NCBI GenBank assembly: GCA_963764725.1
Contig: CAVXTM010000007.1
Location: 29,230-93,229 of the forward strand
DNA: 64,000 nucleotides
Direction: 5' to 3'
From: an uncultured Gammaproteobacteria bacterium
Lineage (GTDB): Bacteria; Pseudomonadota; Gammaproteobacteria; JACCXJ01
Numbering within the stretch: the stretch's first letter is position 1; every line of letters starts with the position of its first letter. Under the pieces are notes generated by a model, which was given only the letters and a program-made list of their open reading frames with translations, was not told the DNA's origin and did no database searches. The position numbers and the translations under genes were made by a program. Positions 6,779-28,280 of the stretch are shown in pieces.

Positions 6779-6806
6779 GGTTCAGATCTTGCGATAAATA
6801 ATACCC

Positions 6807-7106: not shown

Positions 7107-7115
7107 TCCCGTAGA

Positions 7116-10418: not shown

Positions 10419-10689
10419 GACTCAGACTCCCCTTTTATTCTTCCAAACCCACGGATCCACACTACGTCAAGAAGGAGCGGATATCAATAACGATCTATGC
10501 CCCGAGAAAATCCAGTGTGAGCTTATGAGTAAATCTATCCAAACATATTTGAAATGTCGGGTACACCTCCGAAGTCCCTCTCCTTCCCCGACAGGCACCG
10601 ACTTGTGCAAGCCGCGCATGGTTTACAAAATAGACCGGGGCGCATGGTTTAGCAAATTCTTCTCCCTGTCCGTGCCATTGGCTGGGAGG

Positions 10690-11796: not shown

Positions 11797-12462
11797 ATGG
11801 ACCCGATGGACCAAGGCATACGCTACCCGCCGAACCGGGTTCGTGACGCCTTGCATCGCGTGCTGTTCGGTCTCGTCGCGGCGCCGGGTCCCAGCTTTCA
11901 GGACTGGGTCTTACGCCATTTCTTCGAGCGTCTCTACCGGCGACCCAACCCCTGGTCTTACGAGGGTTCAGCGTATCAAAACCACAAATGCGGCCAGGCG
12001 CTCGCGCGGATCCCGCAGAACGCTTACGGGCGGGTGTTAGAGGTCGGGTGCGGGGAAGGGGCGTTCTCCGAGCGACTCCTCGCGGAGCGCGACGTGCGTG
12101 AGTTTATCGGCGTGGACATCTCCACGCGCGCGATCGACCGGGCAAAGAGCCGCTGTTCCCGGTACGAAAACGCGCGCTTCCACGCGGACAACATCTTCTC
12201 GGCGCGTCTCCCGGCTAGGTTTGACCTGATCGTCGTCTGCGAGGTCCTCTACTACCTCGGCGGATCGGCGCCGGATCTCGCGGCGTTGCTCATCCCGATG
12301 CTGTCTCCCCGCGGCCGCTTGCTCTTGGTGCATCTTTGGCCCGAGGCCGAACAGTTGCACCGCGCTTTCCTTGCGAGTGGCGATCTGAGCGTGCTCGATG
12401 AGCTCGTCGATCGGCACAGCGTGCGGCCGTTCTGTGCTTCTCTACTGGGGAGGAACCCTTGA
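11797..12462 (+). CDS. class I SAM-dependent methyltransferase (NodS-like)
   Basis: PNPWSYEGSAYQNHK followed by the SAM motif VLEVGCGEGAFS; 221 aa. Confidence 0.75.
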   Translation: MDPMDQGIRYPPNRVRDALHRVLFGLVAAPGPSFQDWVLRHFFERLYRRPNPWSYEGSAYQNHKCGQALARIPQNAYGRVLEVGCGEGAFSERLLAERDVREFIGVDISTRAIDRAKSRCSRYENARFHADNIFSARLPARFDLIVVCEVLYYLGGSAPDLAALLIPMLSPRGRLLLVHLWPEAEQLHRAFLASGDLSVLDELVDRHSVRPFCASLLGRNP

Positions 12463-12472
12463 AATCTATTTC

Positions 12473-12575
12473 CCCGGCCTTGCCGCGGGCACCTTAGCGA
12501 TGGGGTTTCCAAAGGGGAGAGGCGCACCTCTCCCCTTTGGTCGCCCCAGCAGGTTTATACCCCGTGGTGGCGAAT
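12473..12575 (+). repeat. triple-hairpin intergenic repeat, copy A
   Basis: Shares the core cttgccgcggg..ccttagc.atggggtttccaaaggggagaggcgca.ctctcccctttggtcgcccca with 27056-27160 (4 mismatches in a hand-aligned 70 nt) and, inverted, with 20735-20836. Lies between convergent genes. Confidence 0.85.
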
Positions 12576-12601: not shown

Positions 12602-13489
12602 TCAGTTTACCGCCTCCGCGGGCTTCGCCGCGGCGCCTTTCCTGATGGTGGCCACGGTAATGACAAGGATGCTCAGGAGCATTGCCCCGATACCGATTAT
12701 TTTGATTGCGGGAAACTCTTCGCCAAACACACCGTAACCGGCCAACAAGGTCACCGGACGTTGGGTAATGATCACCAAGGGCACACTGACCGAGACATCA
12801 CCGTGCGCCAAGGCGATCTGCATGAAGATAAAGCCGATGAGGCTGAATACGACGATGAATAGAACAGGCCAGAGAGTGATAAACGCGCTGAGACTTTCCC
12901 ACGACGTGATCGAAAAATAGCCGAGCTGCGAGGCGATCAGATTGGTATTCACCTTGAGAAAGATCTCCACGTTTCCGAAAGCGATCCCGGCGCAAGTGGC
13001 GAAATAGATTTCATGGATCGGGCGTTCGTCCCGCAACGCCCCCGCCACCAGAGCGATGATCGCGATCAATGACAGCCCGGTGACGACACCTAGTGGAAAT
13101 AGGTAGGTTTCGTGGCCTGTCGATGGATCGCTGACAAAAAGCAGGATGGCCGTACCCAAGATCGCAGTGATCACACCGATCCATTGCTCCCGGGAGAGAA
13201 TCTCCTGCAGGAACAGATAACCGAGGATCAAGGTAAAGACATAGGCAAAGTTCAGGAGCGGGTAGACCAGGGTGATATCCGCCAACGACTGGATCTCGAT
13301 GATGATCAGGTTGGCAATTGCCCCCGCCAGCCAACCCGCGAGCCAGAACTTGTTGCGGATCGCGGCCCGAGCCTTTTGTTTCCAGCTCGCGCGCTGCGGC
13401 AGCTCACGTTGGAGCGCATACTTGCAAAGCACGGCGCTTGCCCCGTACAGGACGCAACAAAAGATCACGATCGCTCCGTATAGAAACAT
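12602..13489 (-). CDS. DMT/EamA-like multi-pass membrane permease (uncertain)
   Basis: 295 aa, about 10 predicted TM helices arranged as two similar halves. Confidence 0.45.
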   Translation of the reverse strand: MFLYGAIVIFCCVLYGASAVLCKYALQRELPQRASWKQKARAAIRNKFWLAGWLAGAIANLIIIEIQSLADITLVYPLLNFAYVFTLILGYLFLQEILSREQWIGVITAILGTAILLFVSDPSTGHETYLFPLGVVTGLSLIAIIALVAGALRDERPIHEIYFATCAGIAFGNVEIFLKVNTNLIASQLGYFSITSWESLSAFITLWPVLFIVVFSLIGFIFMQIALAHGDVSVSVPLVIITQRPVTLLAGYGVFGEEFPAIKIIGIGAMLLSILVITVATIRKGAAAKPAEAVN

Positions 13490-13606
13490 TTATACTTCCG
13501 TTCCTTTGAGTCCGCGCGGACTGCGCAAGTGCTTAGCGGTTCGATGATGACACCAATCCGCGCCGATTGTAACCCCGTAGGATAAAATCAGCGCTCAAGT
13601 GAGGCT

Positions 13607-16195
13607 GTGATGAAAAACGCTGCGGCCGCTGGCGTCGATACGACCGCCTTGGCCTACCAGGTCGGGAAGAAGCTCGCCGTGCACATCGGCGCGCTGGTGA
13701 GCCTGGCAATCGTCACGCTTGCCCTCTGGGTCTTGTATCACACCCTGCACGAGATCCGTCTCCGTGACGTCATCAATAGTTTCAACGATCTCCCGGCTGC
13801 ATCGATCCTCTTAGCGTTCCTGATCACCGCGGTCAGCTACCTCGTCGTCACCGGCTACGACGTCCTCGCATTGCACCACCTTCAAAGGCCCTTACCGTAC
13901 TGGCGCACAGCGCTCGCCTCGTTCCTCGCCTCGGCGTTTGGCAATAACGTTGGGTTCACCATGCTCACCGGCGGCTCGATAAGGTATCGGATCTATTCGC
14001 AAGCGGGGCTCTCGGCGATCGAGATCGCCGGCGTCACCACCATGTGCTCCCTGACCACCGTGATGGGGATGGTCTTTATCTTCGCGGTGTCGCTGCTGTT
14101 TGCGAGCGGGGACGTCAGCGACACCGCGCTTCAACTCCCGCCGGGCGTGCGCCGCTACGTGGGCTTTTCCATCATGGCCGTGATAGTGGGGTACTTGATC
14201 GTGTCCGCCCTACGCCCGATCACTTTCACCACCGACAATTGGTCGCTGCGGCTCCCGACCGCCAAGACCGCCTTGGCGCAAGGCGGGCTGGCGACGCTCG
14301 ACCTGCTGCTTGTCGGCACCCTGATTTATACCCTGCTGCCAACGCATGCGGGAACCGACTTTATTAGCTTTTTAGGCATCTTCGCGCTCGCCATGATGGC
14401 CGGTAGCATGAGCAACGTCCCGGGCGGCATCGGGGTGTTCGAGACCGTACTGCTGCTCGGTCTTCCCGAGATCCCGCCCGCCGCGCTGCTAGGTTCCGTG
14501 CTCTTGTTCCGATGCGTATATTACCTCTCGCCCTTGAGCCTTGCGGCCATCCTGTTCGCCGCCTACGAGCTGGTCGTGCGGCGCGCCCGCATTCTTCGCA
14601 TCCGCGGCGCCGCCACCGATTGGCTGGCGGAGATTGGTCCTCAGATCATGAGCGTAATTATCGTTTTCGCCGGCATCGTCCTGCTTTTTTCGGGCGCCAT
14701 ACCCACCTACGGCGAGCGCCTACGGATCCTGCATGACTCCGTGCCGCTTGGCATTGTCGAGATCGCCCATCTCGTCGCTAGCGCGGCGGGGATTGGGCTC
14801 ATTATCCTCGCGCGCGGTATTTCCCGGCGCTTATCCAGGGCCTATGGTCTCTCGGCGCTACTACTCGGGCTCGGGATCCCAGCCGTCCTGCTTAAGGGCT
14901 TGGACTACCAGGAAGCCGTCATTCTCGCTACTGTCCTCATCGTGCTGCTACCCACGCGCAGGGAGTTTCACCGTCACTCTTCTCTGTTTAGCCAGGGGTT
15001 TACCGTGGAATGGGTCTCCGCGCTAACGGCGATCCTAGCGGTCACGGTTTGGCTCGGGCTCTTCAATTTTAAGCATCTGATCTACTCGCACGAGCTTTGG
15101 TGGCAATTCGCCTACGATGCCGATCTGCCGCGCTTCCTGCGCGCTATGTTCCTCGTCTTCGGGATCACGAGCGGCGTCATGCTTTTTAACCTACTCCGCC
15201 CGGACCCGGTACCCGAGCCTCTACATGATCTCGACAAAGTCCGGCGTATCGTGCGAACAGACCCCGATACGCGGGCGAACATCGCCCTTCTCGGCGACAA
15301 GCGCTTGCTTTTCAGCCACTCAGGAAATGCCTTCATCATGTACCAGGTCCAAGGCAAGAGCTGGGTCGCCTTGGGGGACCCCGTAGGCGCGCCGGACGAG
15401 CGGTCGCAGTTGCTCTGGACCTACCGCGAGCTATGTGACCGCTACGGCGGCTGGGCCGTGTTTTACTTGGTGGATGCCGCCAACCTTTCCCTGTACGTCG
15501 ACCTCGGACTCTCGCTCCTCAAGCTCGGGGATGAGGCTCGAGTGCGCTTGGATGAATTTTCACCCCTCAACGTCGCCAGCGCCCAATTGCGTGAGATACA
15601 CCGCGAGCTTCGCGAGCAAGGCATGCGTTTCGACATGGTGCGCTCCGCCGATGTCGCCCCGCTGCTCCCGGAGCTAAGAGAGGTCTCCGAGGCCTGGCTT
15701 CACGAAAAGCAAGCCCGTGAACAGGGCTTCTCTAAGGGATACTTCGACGAGAGTTACATTGGCCGGCTGCCCATCGCCGTGGTCCGCGCTGGGCAGCGCA
15801 TCGTCGCCTTTGCTATCTTGTGGGCCAGCCGCAACAAAGAGGAACTGGCGCTTGACCTCATGCGTTACCATCCCGATGCCCCGGCCGGGGTCATCGATTA
15901 TCTCTTAGTCGAGCTCATGCTCGGCGGCAAGGCGCAAGCTTATCGCTGGTTCAACCTCGGGATCGCCCCGCTCTCAAACTTCGACGCACACCCCCTCGCG
16001 CCCCTTTGGCAACGTGTCGGTAAGCTCATGTACCGGCAGAGCGAGCACTTCCAGAACATCGAAAGCCTGCGCCGTTACGAAGAGAACTTCAAACCCGTAT
16101 GGCGCCCAAAATACCTGGCCTCGCCGGGGGGCCTGAATCTGCCGAGGATCCTCCGGGACATCGGGCGCTTGATCGCGGACGGTCAAAGGGTGTAG
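13607..16195 (+). CDS. mprF: MprF-type bifunctional aminoacyl-phosphatidylglycerol synthase/flippase
   Basis: 862 aa. The N-terminal multi-TM half is LPG-synthase-TM-like. The C-terminal soluble half is typical of lysyl/alanyl-PG synthases (FIMYQVQGKSWVALGDPVG...YLVDAAN...FSKGYFDE...RYEENFKPVWRPKYLA). Confidence 0.85.
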   Translation: MMKNAAAAGVDTTALAYQVGKKLAVHIGALVSLAIVTLALWVLYHTLHEIRLRDVINSFNDLPAASILLAFLITAVSYLVVTGYDVLALHHLQRPLPYWRTALASFLASAFGNNVGFTMLTGGSIRYRIYSQAGLSAIEIAGVTTMCSLTTVMGMVFIFAVSLLFASGDVSDTALQLPPGVRRYVGFSIMAVIVGYLIVSALRPITFTTDNWSLRLPTAKTALAQGGLATLDLLLVGTLIYTLLPTHAGTDFISFLGIFALAMMAGSMSNVPGGIGVFETVLLLGLPEIPPAALLGSVLLFRCVYYLSPLSLAAILFAAYELVVRRARILRIRGAATDWLAEIGPQIMSVIIVFAGIVLLFSGAIPTYGERLRILHDSVPLGIVEIAHLVASAAGIGLIILARGISRRLSRAYGLSALLLGLGIPAVLLKGLDYQEAVILATVLIVLLPTRREFHRHSSLFSQGFTVEWVSALTAILAVTVWLGLFNFKHLIYSHELWWQFAYDADLPRFLRAMFLVFGITSGVMLFNLLRPDPVPEPLHDLDKVRRIVRTDPDTRANIALLGDKRLLFSHSGNAFIMYQVQGKSWVALGDPVGAPDERSQLLWTYRELCDRYGGWAVFYLVDAANLSLYVDLGLSLLKLGDEARVRLDEFSPLNVASAQLREIHRELREQGMRFDMVRSADVAPLLPELREVSEAWLHEKQAREQGFSKGYFDESYIGRLPIAVVRAGQRIVAFAILWASRNKEELALDLMRYHPDAPAGVIDYLLVELMLGGKAQAYRWFNLGIAPLSNFDAHPLAPLWQRVGKLMYRQSEHFQNIESLRRYEENFKPVWRPKYLASPGGLNLPRILRDIGRLIADGQRV

Positions 16196-16213
16196 CCGGA
16201 TGCTAGACCAGGC

Positions 16214-17342
16214 ATGAAAAACTACAAGATTGCGTTGGTGAGTGACTGGTACTATCCGCGGGTGGGCGGTATCGAGTACGCGATCGACGCGCTGGGCCGC
16301 GGGCTTGTCACGCTTGGTCACGAGGTACACATTATCGCGCGGCTTTACGGCCGCGCCTCGGCGAGCGAGACCAGCAATGGCCTACCGATCGTAAGGCTGG
16401 AGAGTTGCCCGCTATCGGAGTATCTCTTGTCTCCGCGGGGATATAGATCCCTGCGAGATATCTTGCGCGCAGGGGATTTCGATATCATTCATAGCCACGG
16501 CCTCGACTCGCCGATGGCGATGGTGTCTCTCACTATCGCCGCCAAGCTCGGGATCCCGAGCATTATCACCAGCCATTCGCTGCTGGGAGAGTCGCTTTCA
16601 CAACGCGCCCTCTCATCGGGCGCAAAGGTTGTTCTCCGGCCTGCACAAGCGATCATCGCCGTAAGCTCTCCCGTCGAGCGCCAGGCACGGGCGATGTTCA
16701 GGGGTGCGGTCTTTCGCATCCCGAACGGTATCGATACGAACTCGCCCAACGGAGCGCTGCAACCCATCGCCCTGCCCCAAGGCCATGGGCCGGTCGTCGC
16801 CACAGTGGCGCGCATGAATAAACGCAAAGGCGTGCAGGATCTCATCACCGTCGCCACGATGTTAGTACCAAAAGCACCCGGATCTCCTGTTCCTTATGGT
16901 CGGCGATGGACCCCTGCGACTGCGGCTCGAACAAGGGATCCAGGCGTCAGGGCTCGGCCGGCATTTCCTGTTTACCGGTGGCGTTTCCCGCGCGACCGTG
17001 TTACACCTTCTGGGCCAGTCCGATGTCTTCGTCTCGCCTTCGCCGCGCGAGGCCTTCGGGATCTGCGTGCTCGAGGCGTTTCTGAAAAAGGTCCCGGTCG
17101 TGGCCCGCGGAAACACCGGGGTTTCAGACATCATTAGCCACCAGCAGACGGGCTTCCTTGCGGACGACGTGGCCGGCATTGCACACTATATTGATACGCT
17201 CATCCAGGACCCGGAACTGCGTTCGGCCGTCGCTCGCCGGGCTCACGAAGAGCTCGACAAATACCAGTGGAACACGGTCGCCAGGCAGGTTGAGCAGGTT
17301 TATGCGCATGCCACTCGTGAAACGGGCCGTTATTTCGGTTGA
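16214..17342 (+). CDS. GT4 (GT-B) glycosyltransferase with a PIG-A-like N-terminus, interrupted by a +1 frameshift (pseudogene or sequence error)
   Basis: N-terminal ORF 16214-: KIALVSDWYYPRVGGIEYA...IIHSHGLDSP...ITSHSLLGE...VATVARMNKRKG. It continues in another frame from 16866: HPDLLFLMVGDGPLR...VFVSPSPREAFGICVLEAF...VVARGNTGVSDII. The frames join at the A4 run 16870-16873. Confidence 0.8.
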
Positions 17343-18091
17343 TGTAGAGCAAGACTGTCCGCCATTCCTCGATTCGATGCGCGGGGTCGAGGAGGGCTTG
17401 CCGCGGCTGTGCGCGATGTTCGCGGCCGAAAGCGTATCGGCAACGTTCTTTTCCACCGGCCGGATCGCCGAGCTATATCCGGAACGCATCAGGGATATCT
17501 GCGCCGGAGGCCATGAGCTGGGCGGTCACGGTTATTCACACCGGCGTTTCGATCACATGGAGAATGCAGAGGCAAGGACCGATCTGGCAAAGACGCGACA
17601 GGCGCTCGAGCCGTTCAATTCTCAGTTAACTTCCTTCCGTGCGCCCAATCTGCGACTGCCGGCACGCTATGTGTCTCTCCTCGGCGCCCACGGCTTCCAT
17701 GTCGATTCATCGCTGGCCGCTTACAAACCCCCTTTCGCGCGCACAACCGTGGTCGCAAACGGCATCACACGCGTTCCTGTGTCCGTGACCTCCTCCGTAC
17801 TGCGGCTGCCGCTACCACTCGTCAAGGCCGTGCTCGGGCGGGTGCGCGACCCGGTGCTGTTCGTGCACCCCTGGGAGTTCGTCGATATGTCGCGAGACGG
17901 GGATCCGCCTCGATTGCCGCTTCAATACGGGCGAGCCGGCGCTCGCAAACCTAAGTGCGATCATTCGCTGGCTCAAAGAGACCGGCTACCGATTCCTGAC
18001 CTTAAGCGAGTTTGCCTCTCAGAGCCACGCGGGATGGATCAGAAGGGTAAGATACGCGAGCGTATCGCCGAGGCGCCGGCTTAAAGCGTAA
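17302..18091 (+). CDS. polysaccharide deacetylase (NodB homology / CE4), interrupted by a +1 frameshift
   Basis: AVISVDVEQD...ATFFSTGRIAE...GHELGGHGYSH...FRAPNL...FVHPWEFVDM. The conserved tail RLDCRFNTGEPALANLSAIIRWLKETGYRFLTLSEFAS is in the +1 frame. Removing one G from the G4 run 17899-17902 restores a single ORF ending at 18091. Confidence 0.75.
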
Positions 18092-18774
18092 CCACGGCTC
18101 GCCAGCATCGCCTGGCACCGTTTGCGTTCCACTTGGCGCATATATTCGTGCTCATAAAGCAGCACCCGCGGCTGCCCGCTTTCAAAGTCTATCTGCCGGA
18201 GGATTTCGTGGTCGTGACCTTCGGTATCGATGCAGAGAACATCGACGCGGGTAACGGCATGTTTCCGCAGTAAGGAGCTCAAGGTCACGCAGTGCACGAT
18301 CTCCTCGACAACGTAGCGGTCGAGGTCGGGGATCGCCCAGCGGTGGGACAGCAGTACCTCGCGATGAAAGCTCCCCAAGCCCGCGCACCACTGAGGTAAA
18401 TACTCACAATCCTCCCGGATGCGAAACAACGCCCGTTGCTCTTCGCGGTGCGAAATAGCGGCGTTCTCAAAGATGAGATTCGGGTGAGCGCGATAATTTT
18501 CTTGGAGCCTTGCGAAATAACACCGCACCGGCTCGACCAATAGCCCCGGCCAGCGGTAACGCCGCACGTAGTGGTAGAGGGGATCGTAGATCACGCCGTC
18601 GTTGGCCCCGATCTGGATAAAAAACAAGTCCGGTATGGTAGCGGCGCAGTGGTCCATCACCTTGCGCAAGGTCGGCCACGGCGGCAATCGGCATAAGAGG
18701 TCGAATAGCTTGACGAGACCCAAGCGAAGCTTGAGCCGGGTGTCGAGCGGTGGCACGCTCAGGGCGGGCGGCAT
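18019..18774 (-). CDS. FkbM-family methyltransferase
   Basis: FIQIGANDGVIYDPL...LLVEPV...IDTEGHDHEIL pattern typical of Methyltransf_21/FkbM proteins. Confidence 0.75.
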   Translation of the reverse strand: MPPALSVPPLDTRLKLRLGLVKLFDLLCRLPPWPTLRKVMDHCAATIPDLFFIQIGANDGVIYDPLYHYVRRYRWPGLLVEPVRCYFARLQENYRAHPNLIFENAAISHREEQRALFRIREDCEYLPQWCAGLGSFHREVLLSHRWAIPDLDRYVVEEIVHCVTLSSLLRKHAVTRVDVLCIDTEGHDHEILRQIDFESGQPRVLLYEHEYMRQVERKRCQAMLASRGYALSRRLGDTLAYLTLLIHPAWL

Positions 18775-18777
18775 GCG

Positions 18778-19443
18778 CTAAGCACGCGCAAGCAAGCTAC
18801 GGTAGACCAGCAGCGTCCTTTGCCCGGCCGTCCACAGCGTCGCTAAGGCGAGAAGATAAATCACTTCGACCAAGAGGCCTGAGAGGAGACCAATGACCAG
18901 CAAGATCACCCGCTCCGGCCGAGTGACTAACCCTTCCGCGCATGCTATCCCCAAGATTTCCGCACGCGCCCGGACATAACTCGTCATCATCCCGCCGAAC
19001 ATCGCGATGAATACCGCCGCCGCGGCAAATCCGCGGCCTTCCTCCGCGAAGCGGTAGGCGATCGCTGCGAACATGCTCGCTTCCCCAACGCGATCGAGGA
19101 GCGAATCGAGAAACCCGCCCAGTTCCGTCACTCGACCTGTGATCCGCGCGAGCATACCGTCGACCATATCGAACGAGCCGGCGCCCCAGAAAAGCAGACC
19201 GGCGGCCACTGGGTATCCAAGCAAGAATACCCAGCTCGCGACAATGGCCACCAGGCAACTGACGAGCGTCACTTGGTTCGGCGACACGCCACAGCGGGCT
19301 AATCCGCGGGCGACCGCATCCGCCAAGGCGAGCACCCCGCGCTTCGGATAGCCGCCTATCAGAATAGCGAGCCGCCATCTTTTTGTGAGCGCCGAGATCA
19401 TGGTTTCAGGCCAAACGTAATCGCAGGTGACAACTTCCTTCAC
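18778..19443 (-). CDS. CDP-alcohol phosphatidyltransferase family protein (candidate phosphatidylinositol-phosphate synthase)
   Basis: Signature D-G-x2-A-R-x8-G-x3-D-x3-D is seen as DMVDGMLARITGRVTELGGFLDSLLDRVGE. About 6 TM helices. Lies 26 nt downstream of the MIPS gene. Confidence 0.85.
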   Translation of the reverse strand: MKEVVTCDYVWPETMISALTKRWRLAILIGGYPKRGVLALADAVARGLARCGVSPNQVTLVSCLVAIVASWVFLLGYPVAAGLLFWGAGSFDMVDGMLARITGRVTELGGFLDSLLDRVGEASMFAAIAYRFAEEGRGFAAAAVFIAMFGGMMTSYVRARAEILGIACAEGLVTRPERVILLVIGLLSGLLVEVIYLLALATLWTAGQRTLLVYRSLLARA

Positions 19444-19469
19444 GCTAGCGTGAAGGGCCGGCGGGATGC

Positions 19470-20630
19470 CTATGCGATGGCCGCCGGGACCTCCCGCCGA
19501 GTCTGATCGGCAAGCTCATGGGGATCTCGAAAACCGCCTTTGATGAAGGCTTCCGTCATCCTAAAGGCCTCATCGTCCTGAACCTGAAACGGCGGATGTT
19601 TGTAAAAAAAAGCCGAGGGCGCGTGCAACACCCCAGATTGACCTCGCTCCAGCGCCAGTTTGGCGCAACGAATGGCGTCGATGGCGACCCCCGCAGAGTT
19701 CGGCGAGTCTTCCACCGACAGCCTTAACTCGATATTTACTGGGACATCCCCGAAGATCCGACCTTCCATGCGAACGAAACACACTTTGTTGTCTTTCTGC
19801 CACGGGACGAAGTCACTCGGGCCGATATGGATGTTCTCCTCGGACAATCTCTCCCCCGCGACCGATTGGACCGCTTCGGTTTTGGAGCGTTTTTTCGATT
19901 TCACCCTTGCACGGTTCAGCATATTGAGGAAATCCGTATTACCGCCGGTATTGAGCTGGTAGGTGCGCTCCAGCTTCACGCCGCGTTTACGGAAGAGATC
20001 CGTGAGCACGCGGTGGGTAATGGTTGCCCCCAACTGGGATTTGATATCGTCGCCGATGAGCGGCAGCCGGGCTTCGTGAAAGCGGCGCGCCCATACCGGA
20101 TCACTGGCGATGAAAACAGGAATATTATTGACCAAGGCCAAGCCCGCCTTCAAGGCGCAACCGGCATAAAAGCGTGTCGCGTCCTCGGAACCGACCGGCA
20201 GGTAATTGACCAGTATCTCGGCGCCTGACTCCGACAATGCGCGCACCACGTCTTCTTCGCTCGGCTCGGGCGCAAATGCGGTGACGAAGCTATGCCGCTC
20301 ATCGTAATCGTGCATGTGCTCGGAAACCCCATCGAGCACACGGCCCATGCGCACCGTGACACCGGCTCTGGCGATGTCCCGATGAAACACCTGGGTACAG
20401 TTCGGCGGCGCAAAGATCGCTTGCGCGAGATCCTGGCCCACTTTACGCTTATCGATGTCGAAGGCCGCGACAACCTCGAGATCCCGCGGGAGGTACCCGC
20501 CGATGTCCCAGTGCATTAAGCCGACGGCCTCCTCCGGATTTTTCTCCGCATAGTAATGAATACCCTGGATCAGCGAAGAGGCGCAATTTCCAATGCCCAC
20601 CACTGCCAGCTTGACCTTTTTGTTGTTCAT
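19470..20630 (-). CDS. ino1: inositol-3-phosphate synthase (myo-inositol-1-phosphate synthase)
   Basis: 386 aa. N-terminal Rossmann KVKLAVVGIGNCASSLIQGIHYY, plus SQLGATITHRVL and NTGGNTDFLN segments typical of bacterial/archaeal MIPS. Confidence 0.9.
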   Translation of the reverse strand: MNNKKVKLAVVGIGNCASSLIQGIHYYAEKNPEEAVGLMHWDIGGYLPRDLEVVAAFDIDKRKVGQDLAQAIFAPPNCTQVFHRDIARAGVTVRMGRVLDGVSEHMHDYDERHSFVTAFAPEPSEEDVVRALSESGAEILVNYLPVGSEDATRFYAGCALKAGLALVNNIPVFIASDPVWARRFHEARLPLIGDDIKSQLGATITHRVLTDLFRKRGVKLERTYQLNTGGNTDFLNMLNRARVKSKKRSKTEAVQSVAGERLSEENIHIGPSDFVPWQKDNKVCFVRMEGRIFGDVPVNIELRLSVEDSPNSAGVAIDAIRCAKLALERGQSGVLHAPSAFFYKHPPFQVQDDEAFRMTEAFIKGGFRDPHELADQTRREVPAAIA

Positions 20631-20734: not shown

Positions 20735-20836
20735 CGCGGGCAGGGTATTAACCCCGCCCTTGACCAAAGGGGAGAGTCGCGCTTCCCCTTCGGAAACCCC
20801 ATCGCTAAGGTACCCGCGGCAAGACTGCGGGGTATG
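20735..20836 (-). repeat. triple-hairpin intergenic repeat, copy B (inverted orientation)
   Basis: The reverse complement reads cttgccgcgggtaccttagcgatggggtttccgaaggggaagcgcgactctcccctttggtc...gggcggggttaataccctgccc. Sits between the eutBC stop and the MIPS start. Confidence 0.8.
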
Positions 20837-20881: not shown

Positions 20882-23017
20882 TCATGCGGCTCCTGGTTCT
20901 TTGCCGAGGGCCACCCCGGAGCGGCGCTCCTCTAGCATACGCTTGACGTAGTGCGCGGTTTCGGCCGCGGCGCGCTCCGGGCGCTTGCCATGGGCGTGGA
21001 TACCGCAAACCGCGGTAGTGCAGGAATGATCGAGCCCTGGGTCCCACCGCGGGCGGCCCGCCGCATCGCGGCCATAGGTCAAGTAGGCGGAAAGTGTATC
21101 GAGACCGGTTCCGGGACGCTCCCCGATAAAATGCACGATCACGTCCGCACCGATCAAGGCGCCGATATGGTATCCGGCCCGCACCCGCCCATCGGTCACG
21201 ACGATATCGATATCGCCTAGGCGGCAATCGGCCAGGGCGTGCCTAAAGGCAGGCAGGACGGCGCGCAGGTTTTCGTTGACCGCGTTGGCATTGAGCCCAT
21301 CGGAAATCACGACTTGCACCTGCGGCTTGCGAGACGGATAGAGGGAGCGCACGGCCGCGCTATCAACGCTCCGGATGCGTTCACCGGCGGCCGGATGGGC
21401 GATGTAATCGTCCCGATTTTCGGCCGCGGATCGCACCCGAAGACGGCGCGGACACACATCACCGACCACGGCATCTGCCAAGCTGGCGTAAAGCGCGTTA
21501 CGGGCGTGGGTGTAGATCCCATCCAGCCGTGCCTGAACCTCGGGCGGCGCGGCATACGCTCCGGCATAGCCGTATCCGAGATCGAAGCCCTTTTGTTGCA
21601 TTGCCGCAAGCCGCTTGCGTCCTTCCTCGCACAGCAATTCCCTGGCTCGGGTGTCGCCGCCGGCCTTGCGGTAGGACGCATACAGATCGACCGTAGCCTC
21701 GGCCGGCGGCCGGACAGCACCGGCCGCTGACATGACACCGAGATCGGTCAAACGCTTCCGCATCTCGGTCGTAATGCGGCCGCCGCATAACTCTCTCAAG
21801 CGCGGGTGTTGCCGGAATGACGTGGTCATATAACCCAGCATCGGATCCGCATTCCCGGCCACCGCCATCAGGTAGGCAGGGGCGGCCTCGGCGACGATGG
21901 ACTGCGTCAGGCTGTGCAATTCTGCCGGGGCGACCCCCATGTGAAAAGTCGAGCAGACATCGAGGCCCATCGTCAACCCGTGGAGCTTCGCCATGACCGT
22001 GTCCTCGAGGCAGGTCCGGCGGAGCTGATCAGGGCTGCTAAAAACCTCGGGACCGATAAATCCGGCCACGTCGTTCACGATCATCCATGCGGGTCGATCC
22101 GGAAAACGCTTGCGTGACGCCTGTCCGATGGCCCTGGCGACGCCGTAGGTACGGGCTTCCAAAGTCACCATGTCGACGCCTTCGGCGGCGCCGTTGGTAA
22201 CCTCCGATCCCTGACCCGTCTCGAAATACAGGCCATCGAACCCGAACGCGAGATCGGCGATCCCACCGACATCCAGCCCGACCATGCCGAGCAAGGCCTT
22301 GGACGTTCCCGCGAGGCTCTGAAACCCCACATCCACGCGAGTCCGCCGGCGCGCCTCGGTCTGCTTCACGATATCGGAGAGCACGCAGTAGCGCGTCGGC
22401 AACTCCAGCCGATCCACCACGTTTTGCAGCAGACGTTCCAAGCGCACGATGGTCTCGACATCATCGCTCGCCGGGTTCAATCCTATGATCACATCGCCGC
22501 AGCCGTAGCACAGTCCTTCGAGGATAGAGAACAAGATCTCTTCTTCGTCATCGCCCGGGCTGTTGGGCTGGATGCGCGCGCCGAAATGCTCCGACGCCCC
22601 GAGGGCGACGCCCTCTGCGGGCCCCGTAGCGGGCAGAGGATTAAACAAGCGCTTGGCGATATGAGAAAGGTCGGCATTGTCCATCAGCTTGACGACCGCC
22701 GCGATCATCTCGCTGCTCAAGCGCGCGCCATACTCACGGGCCCAGCGCGGCCCCGCGGGCGCCAATAAGCTATCCTTAACCTGATTGAGCGTGAGACGTG
22801 CAATGTCACTGGGAACGGGCTTCAAGGTCCGCAACAGCGATTCGCTGAGGGCATCCTCGACCAGCACGGTCGCGGCCAGCGTCCGCAGCTTGACGGCGCC
22901 AAGTACCCGGCGAGCTTCCGAGCGTACGGCGTTATCACGGGTTCCGCCGACCAAAAGATCCCCTTCCTTGAAGTCATTCGCGAGGACGAAGAGTTTTTGC
23001 AGCGTTTGGCGATCCAC
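20882..23017 (-). CDS. eutBC: ethanolamine ammonia-lyase, fused large (EutB) and small (EutC) subunits
   Basis: A single 711-aa ORF. The N-terminal ~450 aa are EutB-like. The C-terminal part carries EutC segments QVQVVISDGLNANAV, IGERPGTGL and ...MLEERRSGVAL. Confidence 0.88.
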   Translation of the reverse strand: MDRQTLQKLFVLANDFKEGDLLVGGTRDNAVRSEARRVLGAVKLRTLAATVLVEDALSESLLRTLKPVPSDIARLTLNQVKDSLLAPAGPRWAREYGARLSSEMIAAVVKLMDNADLSHIAKRLFNPLPATGPAEGVALGASEHFGARIQPNSPGDDEEEILFSILEGLCYGCGDVIIGLNPASDDVETIVRLERLLQNVVDRLELPTRYCVLSDIVKQTEARRRTRVDVGFQSLAGTSKALLGMVGLDVGGIADLAFGFDGLYFETGQGSEVTNGAAEGVDMVTLEARTYGVARAIGQASRKRFPDRPAWMIVNDVAGFIGPEVFSSPDQLRRTCLEDTVMAKLHGLTMGLDVCSTFHMGVAPAELHSLTQSIVAEAAPAYLMAVAGNADPMLGYMTTSFRQHPRLRELCGGRITTEMRKRLTDLGVMSAAGAVRPPAEATVDLYASYRKAGGDTRARELLCEEGRKRLAAMQQKGFDLGYGYAGAYAAPPEVQARLDGIYTHARNALYASLADAVVGDVCPRRLRVRSAAENRDDYIAHPAAGERIRSVDSAAVRSLYPSRKPQVQVVISDGLNANAVNENLRAVLPAFRHALADCRLGDIDIVVTDGRVRAGYHIGALIGADVIVHFIGERPGTGLDTLSAYLTYGRDAAGRPRWDPGLDHSCTTAVCGIHAHGKRPERAAAETAHYVKRMLEERRSGVALGKEPGAA

Positions 23018-24497: not shown

Positions 24498-24728
24498 GGC
24501 TGCGCTAGTATGTTATTCACGTTCGGTCTAACCGCCCGTATCGAGAAGGAGATCGTCGCAATGCGGCATGATCTATCAAGATCTCAGCGCCGTCAATTGG
24601 GCATTCGGCGCGTCCCCGCAAAAGCCGGTACCCTCGGATAGCGAGATCACCGGCAACGGGGTCACAAAGGGATAAGGTTTAATTTGGCATTCCCCCCGGC
24701 CTGTGTTCCAATTGAAGGGAGGTCCAGC

Positions 24729-27055: not shown

Positions 27056-27160
27056 TTCCCGCGGTCTTGCCGCGGGATCCTTAGCCATGGGGTTTCCAAA
27101 GGGGAGAGGCGCAGCTCTCCCCTTTGGTCGCCCCACGGGGTTCATACCCCGTGGTGGCGA
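27056..27160 (+). repeat. triple-hairpin intergenic repeat, copy C (all three stems perfect)
   Basis: cccgcgg-tcttg-ccgcggg (7 bp), ggggagag-gcgcag-ctctcccc (8 bp), ccacgggg-ttcata-ccccgtgg (8 bp). Lies between convergent egtD and the flippase-like gene. Confidence 0.85.
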
Positions 27161-27190: not shown

Positions 27191-28156
27191 TCATGGCCGG
27201 ACGCGATCGAGCGCCTCGCGCCCGGCAAGCAACGCGGCGGCCAGTGAGAGCGGGACCAAGTGATAAACGGCGCGGTAGAGCAACAGCGCCGCCGTGAGAG
27301 ATTCGGTCGAAATCAAGCTTTGAAAGCTCAGGAGCAAGATGCTCTCAAAGACGCCGAGCCCGCCCGGCACATGGCTCACCATGCCCGCGAGCGTCGCGAC
27401 CGAATAGACGGCGAGGAAGGCGATGAAGGGCACATCCGGTGCGTTCAATAGCACGTACAAGCACCCCCCGGCGAACACGATGTCCGCGAGGGTGAAGAAC
27501 AACTGCGCCATCGCGATCCGCCCGCTCGGCAATCGAAACCGCCAACGGCCGATCGGCATCGGCGCGCGCCGGAAAAAGATCAGAACAGCCAAGGTCACGA
27601 ACAGGGCTAATCCGGAGACGCCGAGGCCGTGCAATAGTCCAGGCGGAACCGGTAGAAAGCGGCCAATGAGATCCGGGTGCAGGGTCAAAGCGGCCGCCCC
27701 CAGGACAAAGTTTCCGATCCCGTAGGCGACCATGCCAAAGAGGGTGACCTGGGCTACATCCAAGGTGCCGAGGCCGGCCGGGACATAGATACGGTAGCGC
27801 ACCGAACCGCCCGAGACGATGTTGACGCCCACGGTATTGGCAATCGCGCAACCGCAGAAAGCCGCAAAGGCCACGGTGCGAAAGGCCACCGCCTGCCCGA
27901 TGTAACGGAGCGCCGACCAGTCATAGCCGATGAGCACCGTGTAGCTCGCGGCCGTTAGTAAAAATGCGAGCCCCAATTGCCCGGGGGAAAGCTGCCGCAC
28001 CTCGGCGAGCATGCGGTTGACATCCAGCTCTTGCAGAAGGTGATAGATTGCTGCGCTCGCGGCCAAAAACAGGGCGAGCGACAAGAGCGGCATGAGCACG
28101 CGCTGCCCGCGGTTCGGCGGCACCATCGCCCGCGCGATCTCATTGGCATCCGTCAT
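27191..28156 (-). CDS. LPG-synthase-TM / UPF0104 'flippase-like' membrane protein
   Basis: Multi-TM protein resembling the N-terminal half of MprF (GGSVRYRIY, VPGGLGVFE motifs also occur in 13607-16195). Likely start MTDANEIA (28156); the track ORF extends into the repeat at 28163-28280. Confidence 0.7.
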   Translation of the reverse strand: MTDANEIARAMVPPNRGQRVLMPLLSLALFLAASAAIYHLLQELDVNRMLAEVRQLSPGQLGLAFLLTAASYTVLIGYDWSALRYIGQAVAFRTVAFAAFCGCAIANTVGVNIVSGGSVRYRIYVPAGLGTLDVAQVTLFGMVAYGIGNFVLGAAALTLHPDLIGRFLPVPPGLLHGLGVSGLALFVTLAVLIFFRRAPMPIGRWRFRLPSGRIAMAQLFFTLADIVFAGGCLYVLLNAPDVPFIAFLAVYSVATLAGMVSHVPGGLGVFESILLLSFQSLISTESLTAALLLYRAVYHLVPLSLAAALLAGREALDRVRP

Positions 28157-28162
28157 TGGGCG

Positions 28163-28280
28163 TCCATACTTACTCTTTCGACTTTGATCTGAGACAATCG
28201 GGTTGATGCGGACATTATACATTTGTGGATCGATGAACTAGACGCGGATGGTGCATCAGGTCGCTGGGAAGTTGCCGCTC
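28163..28280 (+). repeat. direct repeat, left copy (decayed duplicate of the promoter and first ~25 codons of the gene at 35216)
   Basis: Aligns without gaps to 35173-35290 at a constant offset of 7010 nt, about 105/118 identical by hand count. It reads MRTLYICGSMN* where the right copy reads MRALYICGSINQTRMLHQVARQLPQ. Confidence 0.85.

What the first reader, a model, noticed from the sequence alone, without database searches (positions are those of the whole stretch)
12602..20630. Candidate inositol / hexosaminyl-inositol phospholipid pathway
Seen: seven genes lie between the IS remnant with repeat A and repeat B. They are a DMT-like permease, a full-length MprF-type synthase/flippase, a GT4 glycosyltransferase 19 nt downstream of it, an overlapping NodB/CE4 deacetylase, and convergently an FkbM methyltransferase, a CDP-alcohol phosphatidyltransferase (DMVDGMLARITGRVTELGGFLDSLLDRVGE) and inositol-3-phosphate synthase. 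Established: MIPS plus a CDP-alcohol phosphatidyltransferase is the bacterial/archaeal route to phosphatidylinositol phosphate. In GPI-type pathways, PI is GlcNAc-ylated by the GT4 enzyme PIG-A and then de-N-acetylated. Inference: from memory, the GT4 N-terminal region (KIALVSDWYYPRVGGIEYA...IIHSHGLDSPMA...ITSHSLLGE) resembles the PIG-A N-terminal region (VSDFFYPNMGGVE...IIHSH...HSLFG). It is followed by a deacetylase, though of CE4 type rather than PIG-L/LmbE type. That suggests a GlcN-PI-like (GPI-core-like) lipid, possibly methylated by FkbM and flipped or aminoacylated by MprF. Inositol lipids are uncommon in Proteobacteria, and I do not know of this gene combination being described. Caveats: there is no PIP phosphatase here, and the GT4 and deacetylase each carry a frameshift.
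Basis: partly seen in the sequence, partly recalled or inferred. Interest (0 to 1): 0.72.

Follow-up and report, generated by a model that had tools for sequence, protein, structure and literature searches.

The report
Candidate glucosaminyl-inositol phospholipid gene cluster
This stretch of an uncultured cave-type gammaproteobacterium carries a conserved seven-gene set that most likely builds an inositol phospholipid and decorates it with an amino sugar, much like the first steps of eukaryotic GPI-anchor synthesis, although in this genome the two sugar-decorating genes are broken.

Summary
All seven genes are at the stated coordinates, and both frameshifts are real single-base insertions (G16874 in the GT4, about A17895 in the CE4). 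These insertions are absent from the 6-7 relatives that cover each site.

- The CDP-alcohol transferase groups with PIP/archaetidylinositol-phosphate synthases, not PgsA/Pss, and keeps the inositol-phosphate-binding residues.
- The GT4 is not a generic EPS enzyme. With its CE4 partner it forms a family whose other members sit in Methanosarcinales as flippase>GT4>CE4 operons. M. barkeri makes a lipid with a GPI-core head group.
- The genes stay linked. At least six differently arranged gammaproteobacterial clusters combine MIPS, PIP synthase, FkbM, GT4, CE4, MprF and EamA. One deeply diverged architecture uses non-orthologous GT4 and CE4.

What fails is formal PIG-A membership. The Pfam PIGA score is below threshold, 0 of 12 eukaryotic PIG-A motifs match, and the family profile ranks BshA above PimA.

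The product is inferred, not shown. Best reading: a GlcN-(methyl)inositol phospholipid pathway, a new variant of the GT + deacetylase + MprF-type flippase logic known from HexSDF and GpgSDF. The decoration branch is decayed in this strain.

The parts
19470..20630 (-). myo-inositol-3-phosphate synthase (MIPS), 386 aa, intact
   Evidence: Pfam Inos-1-P_synth 124 bits. TIGR03450 scores 436 bits, below its mycothiol-specific cutoff of 638. It is 70-77% identical to the MIPS genes in the other cluster architectures. dN/dS is about 0.07.
18778..19443 (-). CDP-alcohol phosphatidyltransferase of the PIP / archaetidylinositol-phosphate synthase type (probable true start 19401)
   Evidence: The full CDP-OH motif is present. 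NCBIfam gives AIP synthase 134.6, PIP synthase 124.6, PgsA 27.6 and PssA 29.1 bits. The best PDB hits are PIP synthases 5d91 (71.7 bits) and 6h53 (67 bits). The M. tuberculosis ino-P pocket residues S132, K135, R137, R152 and R155 align to S, R, R, R, R. R195 lies outside that alignment; its counterpart is inferred from the conserved 'QR' in the alignments to the other two solved PIP synthases.
18019..18774 (-). FkbM-family SAM methyltransferase, starting 3 nt after the stop codon of the PIP synthase gene
   Evidence: Methyltransf_21 58 bits. It is found next to the CDP-OH gene, the GT4-CE4 pair or MprF-MIPS in every bacterial architecture examined. There is no PDB relative.
16214..17342 (+). 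GT4 retaining glycosyltransferase, 375 aa when corrected; disrupted by a +1 insertion (G16874)
   Evidence: Pfam Glyco_transf_4 and Glycos_transf_1. Intact 375-aa orthologues at about 90% identity, then 42-58% identity to other gammaproteobacterial and Methanosarcinales proteins. The insertion is absent from all 7 relatives that cover the site. AF2 model pLDDT 91, GT-B fold.
17302..18090 (+). CE4 (NodB-type) de-N-acetylase with no signal peptide; disrupted by a +1 insertion at 17894/17895
   Evidence: Polysacc_deac_1 59 bits. It is 54-60% identical to the partner genes in archaeal and bacterial loci. D14/E16/D18, H71-x4-H76, R113-x-P115 and H189 are invariant. The insertion is absent from all 6 relatives that cover the site.
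13607..16195 (+). Full-length MprF (flippase domain plus aminoacyl-lipid synthase domain), 18 nt upstream of the GT4
   Evidence: NF033480 845 bits, above the cutoff of 600. Orthologues at 41-57% identity lie in an operon with MIPS and a CE4 in Methylococcales-type clusters. It occupies the position held by a flippase-only LPG_synthase_TM gene in archaeal and deltaproteobacterial loci.
12602..13489 (-). EamA/DMT 10-TM membrane protein (possible lipid or precursor transporter)
   Evidence: EamA 39 bits, with weak ArnE similarity. A 43%-identical homologue sits beside GT4', CE4', MIPS and MprF in L174.
11797..12462 (+). NodS-like class I methyltransferase (linked only within the ~90% clade; membership uncertain)
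   Evidence: NodS 63 bits. It is syntenic in L001, L003-L005, L091, L093 and L098 and absent from the other architectures.
12472..12542 (.).
   Evidence: It is an insertion relative to L003, L004 and L005.
20762..20830 (.).
   Evidence: A third copy lies at 27094-27129.
27191..28222 (-). Stand-alone LPG_synthase_TM flippase-like gene, 6.5 kb away (possible dedicated flippase; not shown to be linked)
   Evidence: Pfam LPG_synthase_TM 40 bits. It is 35% identical to the N-terminal domain of the MprF at 13607-16195. NF033480 matches the N-terminal 299 positions only.

Best explanation
The region encodes a membrane-lipid head-group pathway. Two convergent operons carry it.

Proposed steps:
1. MIPS makes inositol-3-phosphate from glucose-6-phosphate.
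2. The PIP-synthase-type CDP-alcohol transferase couples it to CDP-diacylglycerol, giving phosphatidylinositol phosphate. An unlinked phosphatase then gives PI.
3. The cytoplasmic GT4 adds an N-acetylhexosamine, probably GlcNAc from UDP-GlcNAc, to the inositol head group.
4. The cytoplasmic CE4 removes the acetyl group. This leaves a free amine and a zwitterionic, less anionic GlcN-PI-like lipid.
5. The FkbM enzyme methylates the head group. Which atom it methylates is unknown.
6. MprF, and possibly the EamA protein, moves the product to the outer leaflet or further aminoacylates it.

Shown: gene identities, family placement, conserved catalytic residues, and recurrent linkage in many lineages. 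Inferred: the donor sugar, the acceptor, the order of steps, the methylation site and the role of MprF.

In the window's own genome the GT4 and CE4 each carry a +1 frameshift. This strain most likely stops at (methyl-)PI plus aminoacyl-PG. Its close relatives have the full pathway.
For: **Inositol-lipid half.**
- MIPS and a CDP-OH transferase are adjacent and co-oriented.
- The transferase scores 134.6 and 124.6 bits on the AIP and PIP synthase models, against 27-29 on PgsA/PssA.
- Its best solved relatives are bona fide PIP synthases.
- It conserves the ino-P-binding residues defined in M. tuberculosis PgsA1 (PMC6506517).

**Amino-sugar half.**
- GT4 and CE4 overlap and are conserved as a pair in about 120 loci.
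- In archaea and a deltaproteobacterium they follow an MprF-like flippase gene. This is the same three-part logic as HexSDF (PMC10128005) and GpgSDF (PMC12713373).
- The CE4 catalytic and metal-binding residues are invariant.

**Link between the halves.** The following arrangements were found.
- Window clade: MprF>GT4>CE4> <FkbM<PIPS<MIPS.
- L095: LpxK>KdsB>GT4>CE4> <FkbM<PIPS.
- L096: <MIPS GT4>CE4> <FkbM.
- L083/84: MIPS>PIPS>FkbM> <CE4.
- L089 plus L011, from one MAG: MIPS>PIPS>FkbM on one contig and GT4>CE4 on another.
- L012/13/119: GT4>CE4>FkbM.
- L170-174: EamA>GT4'> <CE4'<MIPS<MprF | FkbM> <PIPS', with non-orthologous GT4 and CE4.

**Archaeal relatives.** M. barkeri, whose genome carries the orthologous trio, makes an ether lipid with the GPI-core GlcN-inositol head group (stated in PMC2446393). 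The M. barkeri orthologue matches 8 of 10 archaeal-type PIG-A motifs from that paper.

**Other support.** An 'LPG synthase' homologue also accompanies the Bacteroidetes inositol-lipid clusters (PMC9246714). All genes show purifying selection, with dN/dS of 0.06-0.35.
Against: - No lipid chemistry exists for any of these organisms.
- The GT4 acceptor cannot be read from sequence. The family profile ranks BshA (131.8 bits, malate acceptor) above PimA (119.4), and Foldseek does not discriminate between BshA, MshA and PimA.
- Pfam PIGA is sub-threshold and the eukaryotic PIG-A motifs are absent.
- None of the archaeal loci links the trio to MIPS or AIP synthase.
- Some bacterial loci have GT4-CE4-FkbM with only housekeeping neighbours. 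One lineage keeps CE4 beside MIPS-PIPS-FkbM without any GT4.
- No PIP phosphatase is in the window. Candidates appear only elsewhere: Metallophos in L089 and an IMPase-family gene in L173.
- The MprF is a canonical aminoacyl-PG synthase by score. Its N-terminal domain is not specifically related to the archaeal flippase.
Confidence: 0.58

Rival explanations
1. Two unrelated lipid modules sit side by side. MIPS-PIPS-FkbM makes a (methylated) inositol phospholipid. MprF-GT4-CE4 independently converts another lipid (phosphatidylglycerol or a glycosyl-diacylglycerol) into an amino-sugar lipid, as GpgSDF makes GlcN-PG and HexSDF makes HNHDRG. The adjacency would reflect a shared membrane-charge remodelling role, not one pathway.
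For: The GT + deacetylase + MprF-like flippase trio is experimentally tied to PG and glycolipid acceptors (PMC12713373; PMC10128005). Archaeal trios are never next to inositol genes. L012/L013 have GT4-CE4-FkbM without inositol genes nearby. L003 keeps MprF-GT4-CE4 intact although FkbM is truncated and PIPS and MIPS are absent from the remaining 9 kb of the locus.
Against: The GT4 is not a GpgS orthologue (33-47 bits against a cutoff of 480). GT4-CE4 are found next to MIPS and/or PIPS in three independently arranged clusters: the window clade, L095 and L096. A non-orthologous GT4'/CE4' pair again sits with MIPS in L174. FkbM bridges both modules. CE4 alone stays with MIPS-PIPS-FkbM in L083/84.
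Confidence: 0.2
2. The GT4 acts on soluble inositol-3-phosphate, as MshA does, and CE4 deacetylates the product. The GlcN-inositol phosphate then either serves as the alcohol substrate of the CDP-alcohol transferase (same lipid class, different order of steps) or remains a soluble metabolite such as a compatible solute or thiol precursor.
For: MIPS + GT4 + deacetylase mirrors the first steps of mycothiol synthesis (described in PMC7278568). BshA and MshA are among the best structural and profile matches. No PIP phosphatase is encoded in the window, which a pathway glycosylating before lipid attachment might not need.
Against: No cysteine ligase or acetyltransferase is linked. A membrane CDP-alcohol transferase, MprF or a flippase, and EamA are consistently linked, which points to a lipid end product. 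MshA models score low (62-83 bits against a cutoff of 462).
Confidence: 0.12
3. The cluster is non-functional debris in this genome and its arrangement is accidental: an IS-scarred region with pseudogenes and no coherent function.
For: There is an IS remnant at 10492-11740, two frameshifted genes and dispersed repeats.
Against: Relatives carry the whole cluster intact and syntenic at 92-94% nucleotide identity, with dN/dS of 0.06-0.35. The gene set recurs in distant lineages. Only GT4 and CE4 are hit, which looks like coordinated loss of one branch rather than general decay.
Confidence: 0.04

Closest known systems
Eukaryotic GPI-anchor initiation (PIG-A GlcNAc transfer to PI, PIG-L de-N-acetylation, then flipping of GlcN-PI)
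   Same: The proposed chemistry and topology match: a cytoplasmic GT4 enzyme puts GlcNAc on PI, a cytoplasmic deacetylase frees the amine, and the lipid is then translocated. The N-terminal 'SDWYYPxxGGIE' and 'IIHSHG' segments resemble PIG-A motifs CM1 and CM4 (CM1ar matches).
   Different: The deacetylase is CE4, not PIG-L/LmbE. There are no accessory subunits and the GT4 has no transmembrane segment. Pfam PIGA is below threshold and 0 of 12 eukaryotic PIG-A motifs match. The putative flippase is MprF-type. An FkbM methyltransferase is added.
Methanosarcinales flippase>GT4>CE4 operon (contains the 'putative PIG-A' of M. barkeri and M. acetivorans discussed by Oswal et al. 2008); presumed route to glucosaminyl-archaetidylinositol
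   Same: GT4 is 42-49% identical and CE4 54-56% identical. They show the same overlap and order, with invariant catalytic residues.
   Different: The archaeal operon has a flippase-only gene instead of full MprF, has no FkbM, and is not linked to MIPS or AIP synthase. [quoted passage not shown]
HexSDF (C. difficile) and GpgSDF (P. aeruginosa) amino-sugar lipid operons
   Same: They share the three-part logic: a glycosyltransferase adds HexNAc to a membrane lipid, a deacetylase exposes the amine, and an MprF-like flippase is encoded alongside. The outcome is lower net negative membrane charge.
   Different: The enzymes are not orthologous. GpgS scores 33-47 bits against a cutoff of 480. HexS is annotated as MGDG-synthase-like. 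GpgD is COG3233. The acceptors there are PG and a glycosyl-diradylglycerol, whereas here the linked genes point to PI.
Bacterial PI pathway (MIPS + PIP synthase + PIP phosphatase) of Actinobacteria and Bacteroidetes
   Same: MIPS lies next to a PIP-synthase-type CDP-alcohol transferase with a conserved ino-P pocket. An LPG-synthase-like neighbour also occurs in Bacteroidetes clusters (PMC9246714).
   Different: The host is a gammaproteobacterium. Scores are below the NCBIfam equivalog cutoffs. There is no PgpA-like PIP phosphatase and no sphingolipid branch. The pathway is coupled to GT4, CE4, FkbM and MprF.
PimA (mycobacterial PI alpha-mannosyltransferase)
   Same: It is the best single-sequence PDB hit (98.8 bits, about 26% identity over the full length). 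It is a peripheral GT4 enzyme acting on the inositol ring of PI.
   Different: PimA uses GDP-mannose and has no deacetylase partner. With the family profile, BshA outranks PimA.

Membership tests
PIP / archaetidylinositol-phosphate synthase (CDP-alcohol phosphatidyltransferase subfamily) | CDP-alcohol motif D-x2-D-G-x2-A-R-x8-G-x3-D-x3-D | tested here: met
   DMVDGMLARITGRVTELGGFLDSLLD read directly from the sequence; Pfam PF01066 57 bits.
PIP / archaetidylinositol-phosphate synthase (CDP-alcohol phosphatidyltransferase subfamily) | Scores best on PIPS/AIPS models rather than PgsA/PssA/Cls, and reaches the curated equivalog cutoff | tested here: inconclusive
   The ranking is met: AIPS 134.6, PIPS 124.6, BT_1523-type 109, DIPPS 65, PssA 29, PgsA 28 bits. 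The cutoffs of 180 and 170 are not reached. The best PDB hits are PIP synthases.
PIP / archaetidylinositol-phosphate synthase (CDP-alcohol phosphatidyltransferase subfamily) | Positively charged inositol-phosphate pocket (M. tuberculosis PgsA1 S132, K135, R137, R152, R155, R195) | tested here: met
   The phmmer alignments place S, R, R, R, R of 'TSYVRARAE...RPER' on S132, K135, R137, R152 and R155. R195 is outside the M. tuberculosis alignment; the 'GQR' arginine is conserved in the alignments to the other two solved PIP synthases (residues from PMC6506517).
PIP / archaetidylinositol-phosphate synthase (CDP-alcohol phosphatidyltransferase subfamily) | Catalyses CDP-DAG + inositol-3-P -> PIP | not testable with these tools
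   Needs an enzyme assay or lipidomics.
PIG-A (GPI GlcNAc transferase catalytic subunit) | Pfam PIGA domain (PF08288) at or above the gathering score of 27 bits | tested here: not met
   24.8 bits for the window N-terminal part; 22.3 for the intact orthologue P0006; 18-26 for archaeal and metagenomic relatives. Only profile positions 40-87 are matched.
PIG-A (GPI GlcNAc transferase catalytic subunit) | Eukaryote-exclusive PIG-A motifs CM1-CM12 (Oswal et al. 2008) | tested here: not met
   0 of 12 motifs match, and none of the relaxed sub-variants tested match (motifs).
PIG-A (GPI GlcNAc transferase catalytic subunit) | Relaxed eukaryote+archaea motifs (CM1ar-CM12ar) | tested here: inconclusive
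   The window GT4 matches 3 of 10 (CM1ar, CM9ar, CM12ar). The M. barkeri orthologue matches 8 of 10. A control GT4 (L171) matches 0 of 10.
PIG-A (GPI GlcNAc transferase catalytic subunit) | Transfers GlcNAc from UDP-GlcNAc to the inositol of PI | not testable with these tools
   Supported only by the CE4 partner and by linkage to MIPS and PIPS.
HexSDF/GpgSDF-type amino-sugar lipid system | Adjacent glycosyltransferase, deacetylase and MprF-like flippase genes | tested here: met
   MprF>GT4>CE4 in the window and its clade. Flippase>GT4>CE4 in archaeal and deltaproteobacterial loci.
HexSDF/GpgSDF-type amino-sugar lipid system | Orthology of the glycosyltransferase to GpgS (NF053787 cutoff 480) | tested here: not met
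   33.6-47.6 bits.
MprF (bifunctional aminoacyl-PG synthase/flippase) | Full-length match to NF033480 above the cutoff, with both the LPG_synthase_TM and LPG_synthase_C domains | tested here: met
   845.5 bits against a cutoff of 600, covering positions 5-840 of 841. Both Pfam domains are present.
CE4 carbohydrate esterase (NodB homology domain) | Polysacc_deac_1 domain with metal-binding Asp/His/His and catalytic residues | tested here: met
   59 bits. D14, E16, D18, H71, H76, R113, P115 and H189 are invariant across 10 bacterial and archaeal members. The reading frame is broken in the window.
Myo-inositol-3-phosphate synthase | Inos-1-P_synth domain and full-length similarity to prokaryotic MIPS | tested here: met
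   PF01658 124 bits. TIGR03450 436 bits over positions 1-355 of 355, below the mycothiol-specific equivalog cutoff of 638.
FkbM methyltransferase family | Methyltransf_21 / TIGR01444 domain above the cutoff | tested here: met
   58 bits (cutoff 22.7) and 57.1 bits (cutoff 37.7). The substrate is unknown.

The most novel reading that the evidence does not exclude
Gammaproteobacteria and Methanosarcinales share a prokaryotic counterpart of the first two steps of GPI-anchor biosynthesis. In it, a PIG-A-like GT4 and a CE4 deacetylase (a non-orthologous replacement of PIG-L) make GlcN-inositol phospholipid, and an MprF-family protein flips it. In bacteria this is hard-wired to de novo inositol and PIP synthesis and to an FkbM methylation, giving a previously unreported methylated GlcN-PI membrane lipid. 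The same genes would be the long-missing enzymes for glucosaminyl-archaetidylinositol in Methanosarcina.
Probability: 0.45. Interest if true: 0.82.

Novelty: new variant of a known kind. Interest (0 to 1): 0.66.

Why it matters
Inositol lipids are rare in Bacteria, and no proteobacterial GlcN-PI-type lipid or pathway has been described in the literature searched here.

If the prediction holds, it has three consequences.
- It adds a new class of charge-modifying membrane lipid to Gram-negative bacteria. Relatives of these genes occur in Methylococcales/Crenotrichaceae-type methanotroph MAGs and in cave and subsurface Gammaproteobacteria.
- It names concrete candidate genes for glucosaminyl-archaetidylinositol of Methanosarcina. 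That GPI-core head group was reported in 1992, and no PIG-A-type activity has been demonstrated in archaea.
- It bears on how the GPI-initiation chemistry arose, because the same two reactions would be carried out with a different deacetylase fold and an MprF-type flippase.

The prediction is directly testable by expressing an intact relative's cluster in E. coli.

Tried and rejected
- **Composite transposon bounded by repeats A and B: rejected.** The repeat is a dispersed palindromic element with a third copy at 27.1 kb. It is present or absent independently in relatives that have the same gene order.
- **Archaeal origin of the whole cluster: rejected for PIPS.** Its relatives are bacterial. 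A midpoint-rooted NJ tree of the GT4 leaves the direction of transfer open.
- **MprF N-domain as the orthologue of the archaeal trio flippase: rejected.** There is no specific similarity beyond the PGGxGxxE motif.
- **Assigning the GT4 acceptor from solved structures: inconclusive.** PimA is first with one sequence, BshA is first with the family profile, and Foldseek does not discriminate.
- **GpgS/GlcN-PG orthology: rejected**.
- **NodS-like methyltransferase as a conserved member (NodB/NodS analogy): not supported.** It is linked only within the ~90% clade, and the weak hits near Methanosarcina loci look generic.
- **Search for a PIP phosphatase in the window: none found**. The only candidates are in other loci.
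- **Frameshifts as random sequencing errors: unlikely.** They are the only two intragenic window-specific indels in about 20 kb and hit the two partner genes. Read-level data were not available.
- **dN/dS to detect relaxed selection on the pseudogenes: uninformative** at pairwise level.
- **Literature searches for glucosaminyl-archaetidylinositol biosynthesis genes or bacterial GlcN-PI: nothing found**. Koga's 1993 review could not be fetched.

Full report
**What is in the window.**
- 12602-13489(-): an EamA/DMT membrane protein.
- 13607-16195(+): a full-length MprF (NF033480, 845 bits against a cutoff of 600).
- 16214-17342(+): a GT4 glycosyltransferase starting 18 nt after the MprF stop codon.
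- 17302-18090(+): a CE4 deacetylase overlapping the GT4 end by 41 nt.
- 18019-18774(-): an FkbM methyltransferase, convergent with the CE4.
- 18778-19443(-): a CDP-alcohol phosphatidyltransferase.
- 19470-20630(-): MIPS.

The flanks are a NodS-like methyltransferase (11797-12462) and a fused EutBC (20882-23017).

The closest relatives (about 90% protein identity, 92-94% nucleotide identity) are uncultured 'Chromatiales'/Gammaproteobacteria MAGs. Two of them are named for cave sites, Frasassi and Lehman Caves.

**Frameshifts, IS remnant and repeats.** The relatives carry the whole cluster intact and collinear: GT4 375 aa, CE4 243 aa.
- The window differs by one extra G at 16874 and one extra base at 17894/5. 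Both are absent from every relative that covers the site, 7 and 6 respectively.
- Across about 20 kb of alignable sequence, these are the only window-specific frame-changing indels that lie inside genes. All the others are intergenic or at gene ends. That pattern argues for real, coordinated loss of the GT4-CE4 pair rather than random assembly error. Only read data can settle it.
- The IS remnant is a 1.25-kb insertion (10492-11740) that is missing from relatives.
A third copy lies at 27094-27129, and the element is variably present in relatives. They are not cluster boundaries.

**The inositol half.** The transferase has the exact CDP-alcohol motif.
- It scores 134.6 bits on the archaetidylinositol-phosphate synthase model and 124.6 on the PIP synthase model. 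It scores 65 for DIPP synthase and 27-29 for PgsA/PssA. The equivalog cutoffs (180 and 170) are not reached.
- Against solved structures, the best matches are the PIP synthases of Renibacterium (71.7 bits) and M. tuberculosis (67 bits). PssA and PgsA score about 20.
- The residues that line the inositol-phosphate pocket of M. tuberculosis PgsA1 (S132, K135, R137, R152, R155; PMC6506517) align to S, R, R, R, R in the window protein. R195 lies outside that alignment. A matching arginine ('GQR') is conserved in the alignments to the other two solved PIP synthases.
- Its sequence relatives are bacterial, not archaeal.

The enzyme is a PIP-synthase-type protein sitting next to MIPS.

**The amino-sugar half.** The reconstructed GT4 has about 90% orthologues. 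Beyond these, it is 46-58% identical to proteins from other Gammaproteobacteria MAGs and metagenomes, and 42-49% identical to Methanosarcinales proteins from Methanosarcina, Methanolobus, Methanococcoides and Methanomethylovorans.
- In about 120 fetched loci the GT4 is almost always followed by the orthologous CE4 (46-61% identity), overlapping it.
- In archaea and one deltaproteobacterial MAG, the pair is preceded by a 320-330-aa LPG_synthase_TM 'flippase-like' gene.
- This is the same three-part logic as HexSDF in C. difficile and GpgSDF in P. aeruginosa. There, a glycosyltransferase adds HexNAc to a membrane lipid, a deacetylase frees the amine, and an MprF-like flippase is co-encoded (PMC10128005, PMC12713373).
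- The GT4 here is not a GpgS orthologue (33-47 bits against 480).
- The CE4 alignment shows invariant D14/E16/D18, H71-x4-H76, R113-x-P115 and H189 across bacteria and archaea. There is no signal peptide, so deacetylation is cytoplasmic.

**Is the GT4 a PIG-A?** Formally, no.
- Pfam PIGA scores 18-26 bits (cutoff 27) and covers only part of the model, in the window protein and in all relatives tested.
- Using the published PIG-A motif set (Oswal et al. 2008, PMC2446393), the window GT4 matches none of the twelve eukaryotic motifs and 3 of the 10 relaxed eukaryote+archaea motifs.
- The M. barkeri orthologue matches 8 of 10, and a control GT4 matches none. This makes it likely, by inference, that the M. 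barkeri orthologue is the 'putative PIG-A' of that paper.
- The same paper records that M. barkeri has an ether phospholipid bearing the GPI-core head group, and that no PIG-A activity has been shown in archaea.
- Homology to solved enzymes does not fix the acceptor. PimA (a PI mannosyltransferase) is the best hit for the single sequence (98.8 bits). The family profile ranks BshA (131.8 bits) above PimA (119.4). Foldseek with a pLDDT-91 model puts BshA, MshA, SPS and PimA together.

**Linkage across lineages is the main new evidence.** The two halves are found together in several differently arranged clusters.
- (a) Window clade: NodS | EamA | MprF>GT4>CE4> <FkbM<PIPS<MIPS <EutBC.
- (b) L095: LpxK>KdsB>GT4(52%)>CE4> <FkbM<PIPS, then the contig ends.
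- (c) L096: <MIPS GT4(47%)>CE4> <FkbM <Fur....
- (d) L083/84: EutBC>MIPS>PIPS(63%)>FkbM> <CE4(60%), with no GT4.
- (e) One MAG with PSD>MIPS>PIPS(60%)>FkbM>Metallophos on one contig (L089) and GT4(52%)>CE4 on another (L011).
- (f) L012, L013 and L119: GT4>CE4>FkbM among housekeeping genes.
- (g) A deeply diverged 'type B' architecture in Methylococcales-type and other MAGs (L170-L174): EamA>GT4'> <CE4'<MIPS(70-73%)<MprF(41-57%, NF033480 766 bits) | FkbM(52-56%)> <PIPS'. Here GT4' and CE4' belong to other subfamilies, and an IMPase-family gene is nearby in L173.

In one architecture the GT4 and CE4 roles are filled by non-orthologous enzymes. That is hard to explain unless the functions (inositol lipid synthesis, HexNAc transfer, de-N-acetylation, methylation, MprF) belong to one system.

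An independent precedent is the 'lysyl-PG synthase' homologue conserved beside both types of Bacteroidetes inositol-lipid clusters (PMC9246714).

**Caveats on the linkage.**
- Archaeal trios are never next to MIPS or AIP synthase.
- Architecture (f) has no inositol genes within the flanks.
- L003, a close relative, keeps MprF-GT4-CE4, but FkbM is truncated and followed by a UvrA-like/TIR defence island.
- Most bacterial examples are Gammaproteobacteria, so some arrangements may share ancestry. EutBC synteny links (a) and (d).
- The MprF N-terminal domain is not specifically related to the archaeal flippase. The MprF is by score an ordinary aminoacyl-PG synthase, so its role (flipping, aminoacylating PI or GlcN-PI, or only co-regulated charge remodelling) is open.
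- No PIP phosphatase is in the window.

**Most likely mechanism.** The proposed route has six steps.
1. MIPS makes inositol-3-P.
2. PIPS makes PIP.
3. An unlinked phosphatase gives PI.
4. GT4 makes HexNAc-PI.
5. CE4 makes HexN-PI.
6. FkbM methylates the head group, and MprF and/or EamA translocate it.

The result would be a zwitterionic, GPI-core-like lipid that lowers membrane negative charge. Gene identities, conserved residues and linkage are shown. The donor, the acceptor, the order of steps, the methylation site and the MprF role are inferred. In the window's strain the GT4-CE4 branch is broken, so only the PI/(methyl-)PI and aminoacyl-PG branches are expected.

I put this at about 0.58. 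The rivals are:
- two independent modules with a non-inositol acceptor (0.2);
- an MshA-like route through soluble GlcN-inositol-P (0.12);
- accidental debris (0.04).

**Novelty.** The components and the trio logic are known. The combination is new as far as the searchable literature shows. It comprises de novo inositol and PIP synthesis hard-wired to a PIG-A-like GT4, a CE4 deacetylase, an FkbM methyltransferase and MprF in Proteobacteria, with orthologues of the GT4-CE4 pair in Methanosarcinales. I rate it a new variant of a known kind. Interest is moderately high because it is directly testable and because it nominates genes for an archaeal lipid whose biosynthesis is unassigned.

Noticed in passing
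window 10492-11740: A degenerate IS-type transposase remnant, with several frameshifted ORFs carrying integrase-core-like motifs. It is inserted between the Urate_ox_N-like gene and the NodS-like gene and is absent from all relatives.
   Followed up: partly
window 12472-12542, 20762-20830, 27094-27129: A palindromic intergenic repeat (core GACCAAAGGGGAGAG...). There are 5 matches against 0.04 expected. It is variably present in relatives, so it looks like a REP/MITE-like element.
   Followed up: partly
window 20882-23017 (-): A fused EutB-EutC ethanolamine ammonia-lyase (711 aa) lies directly next to MIPS. The same adjacency is kept in the 63-77%-identical L083/L084 lineage. It is unclear whether it is functionally tied to the lipid cluster (head-group turnover?) or is only syntenic.
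   Followed up: no
window 24684-26998 (+): EgtB-like (DinB_2 + FGE-sulfatase) and EgtD-like (Methyltransf_33) genes form an ergothioneine biosynthesis pair just downstream of the region.
   Followed up: no
window 27191-28222 (-): A stand-alone LPG_synthase_TM 'flippase-only' gene, 35% identical to the N-terminal domain of the MprF at 13607-16195. It could be a dedicated flippase of the HexF/GpgF kind.
   Followed up: partly
window 11797-12462 (+): A NodS-like methyltransferase upstream of the cluster. A NodB-type deacetylase together with a NodS-type N-methylase recalls Nod-factor chemistry. However, the gene is linked only within the ~90% clade.
   Followed up: partly
L003 11821-20889: In one close relative FkbM is truncated. 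It is followed by a 1863-aa double UvrA-like ATPase and a TIR-domain protein, which looks like a defence island. PIPS, MIPS and EutBC are missing from this position.
   Followed up: partly
L171 9505-10347 and L170 7499-8299: A 266-280-aa membrane protein with histidine boxes (HRYYSH, HRYHHVH, HDHxDHH) but no Pfam hit. It looks like a fatty-acid desaturase and sits inside the type-B cluster, next to a Patatin lipase (L171/L172 only), a DUF374 acyltransferase-like gene and a second FkbM.
   Followed up: no
L089 8728-9532; L173 419-1225: A Metallophos phosphoesterase directly downstream of MIPS-PIPS-FkbM, and an IMPase-family protein near the type-B cluster. Both are candidate PIP or inositol-phosphate phosphatases missing from the window.
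   Followed up: no
L025, L028, L030, L043, L103, L106, L118: Some Methanosarcina-type loci have the flippase-like gene (seen in L103, L106, L118) and the GT4 but no detectable CE4, with a weak NodS-like methyltransferase hit 3-7 kb upstream. They may be a paralogous system.
   Followed up: no
window 5402-9779 (+): A sigma-54-dependent response regulator and a hybrid histidine kinase lie upstream. They are syntenic in relatives. Whether they regulate the cluster was not examined.
   Followed up: no
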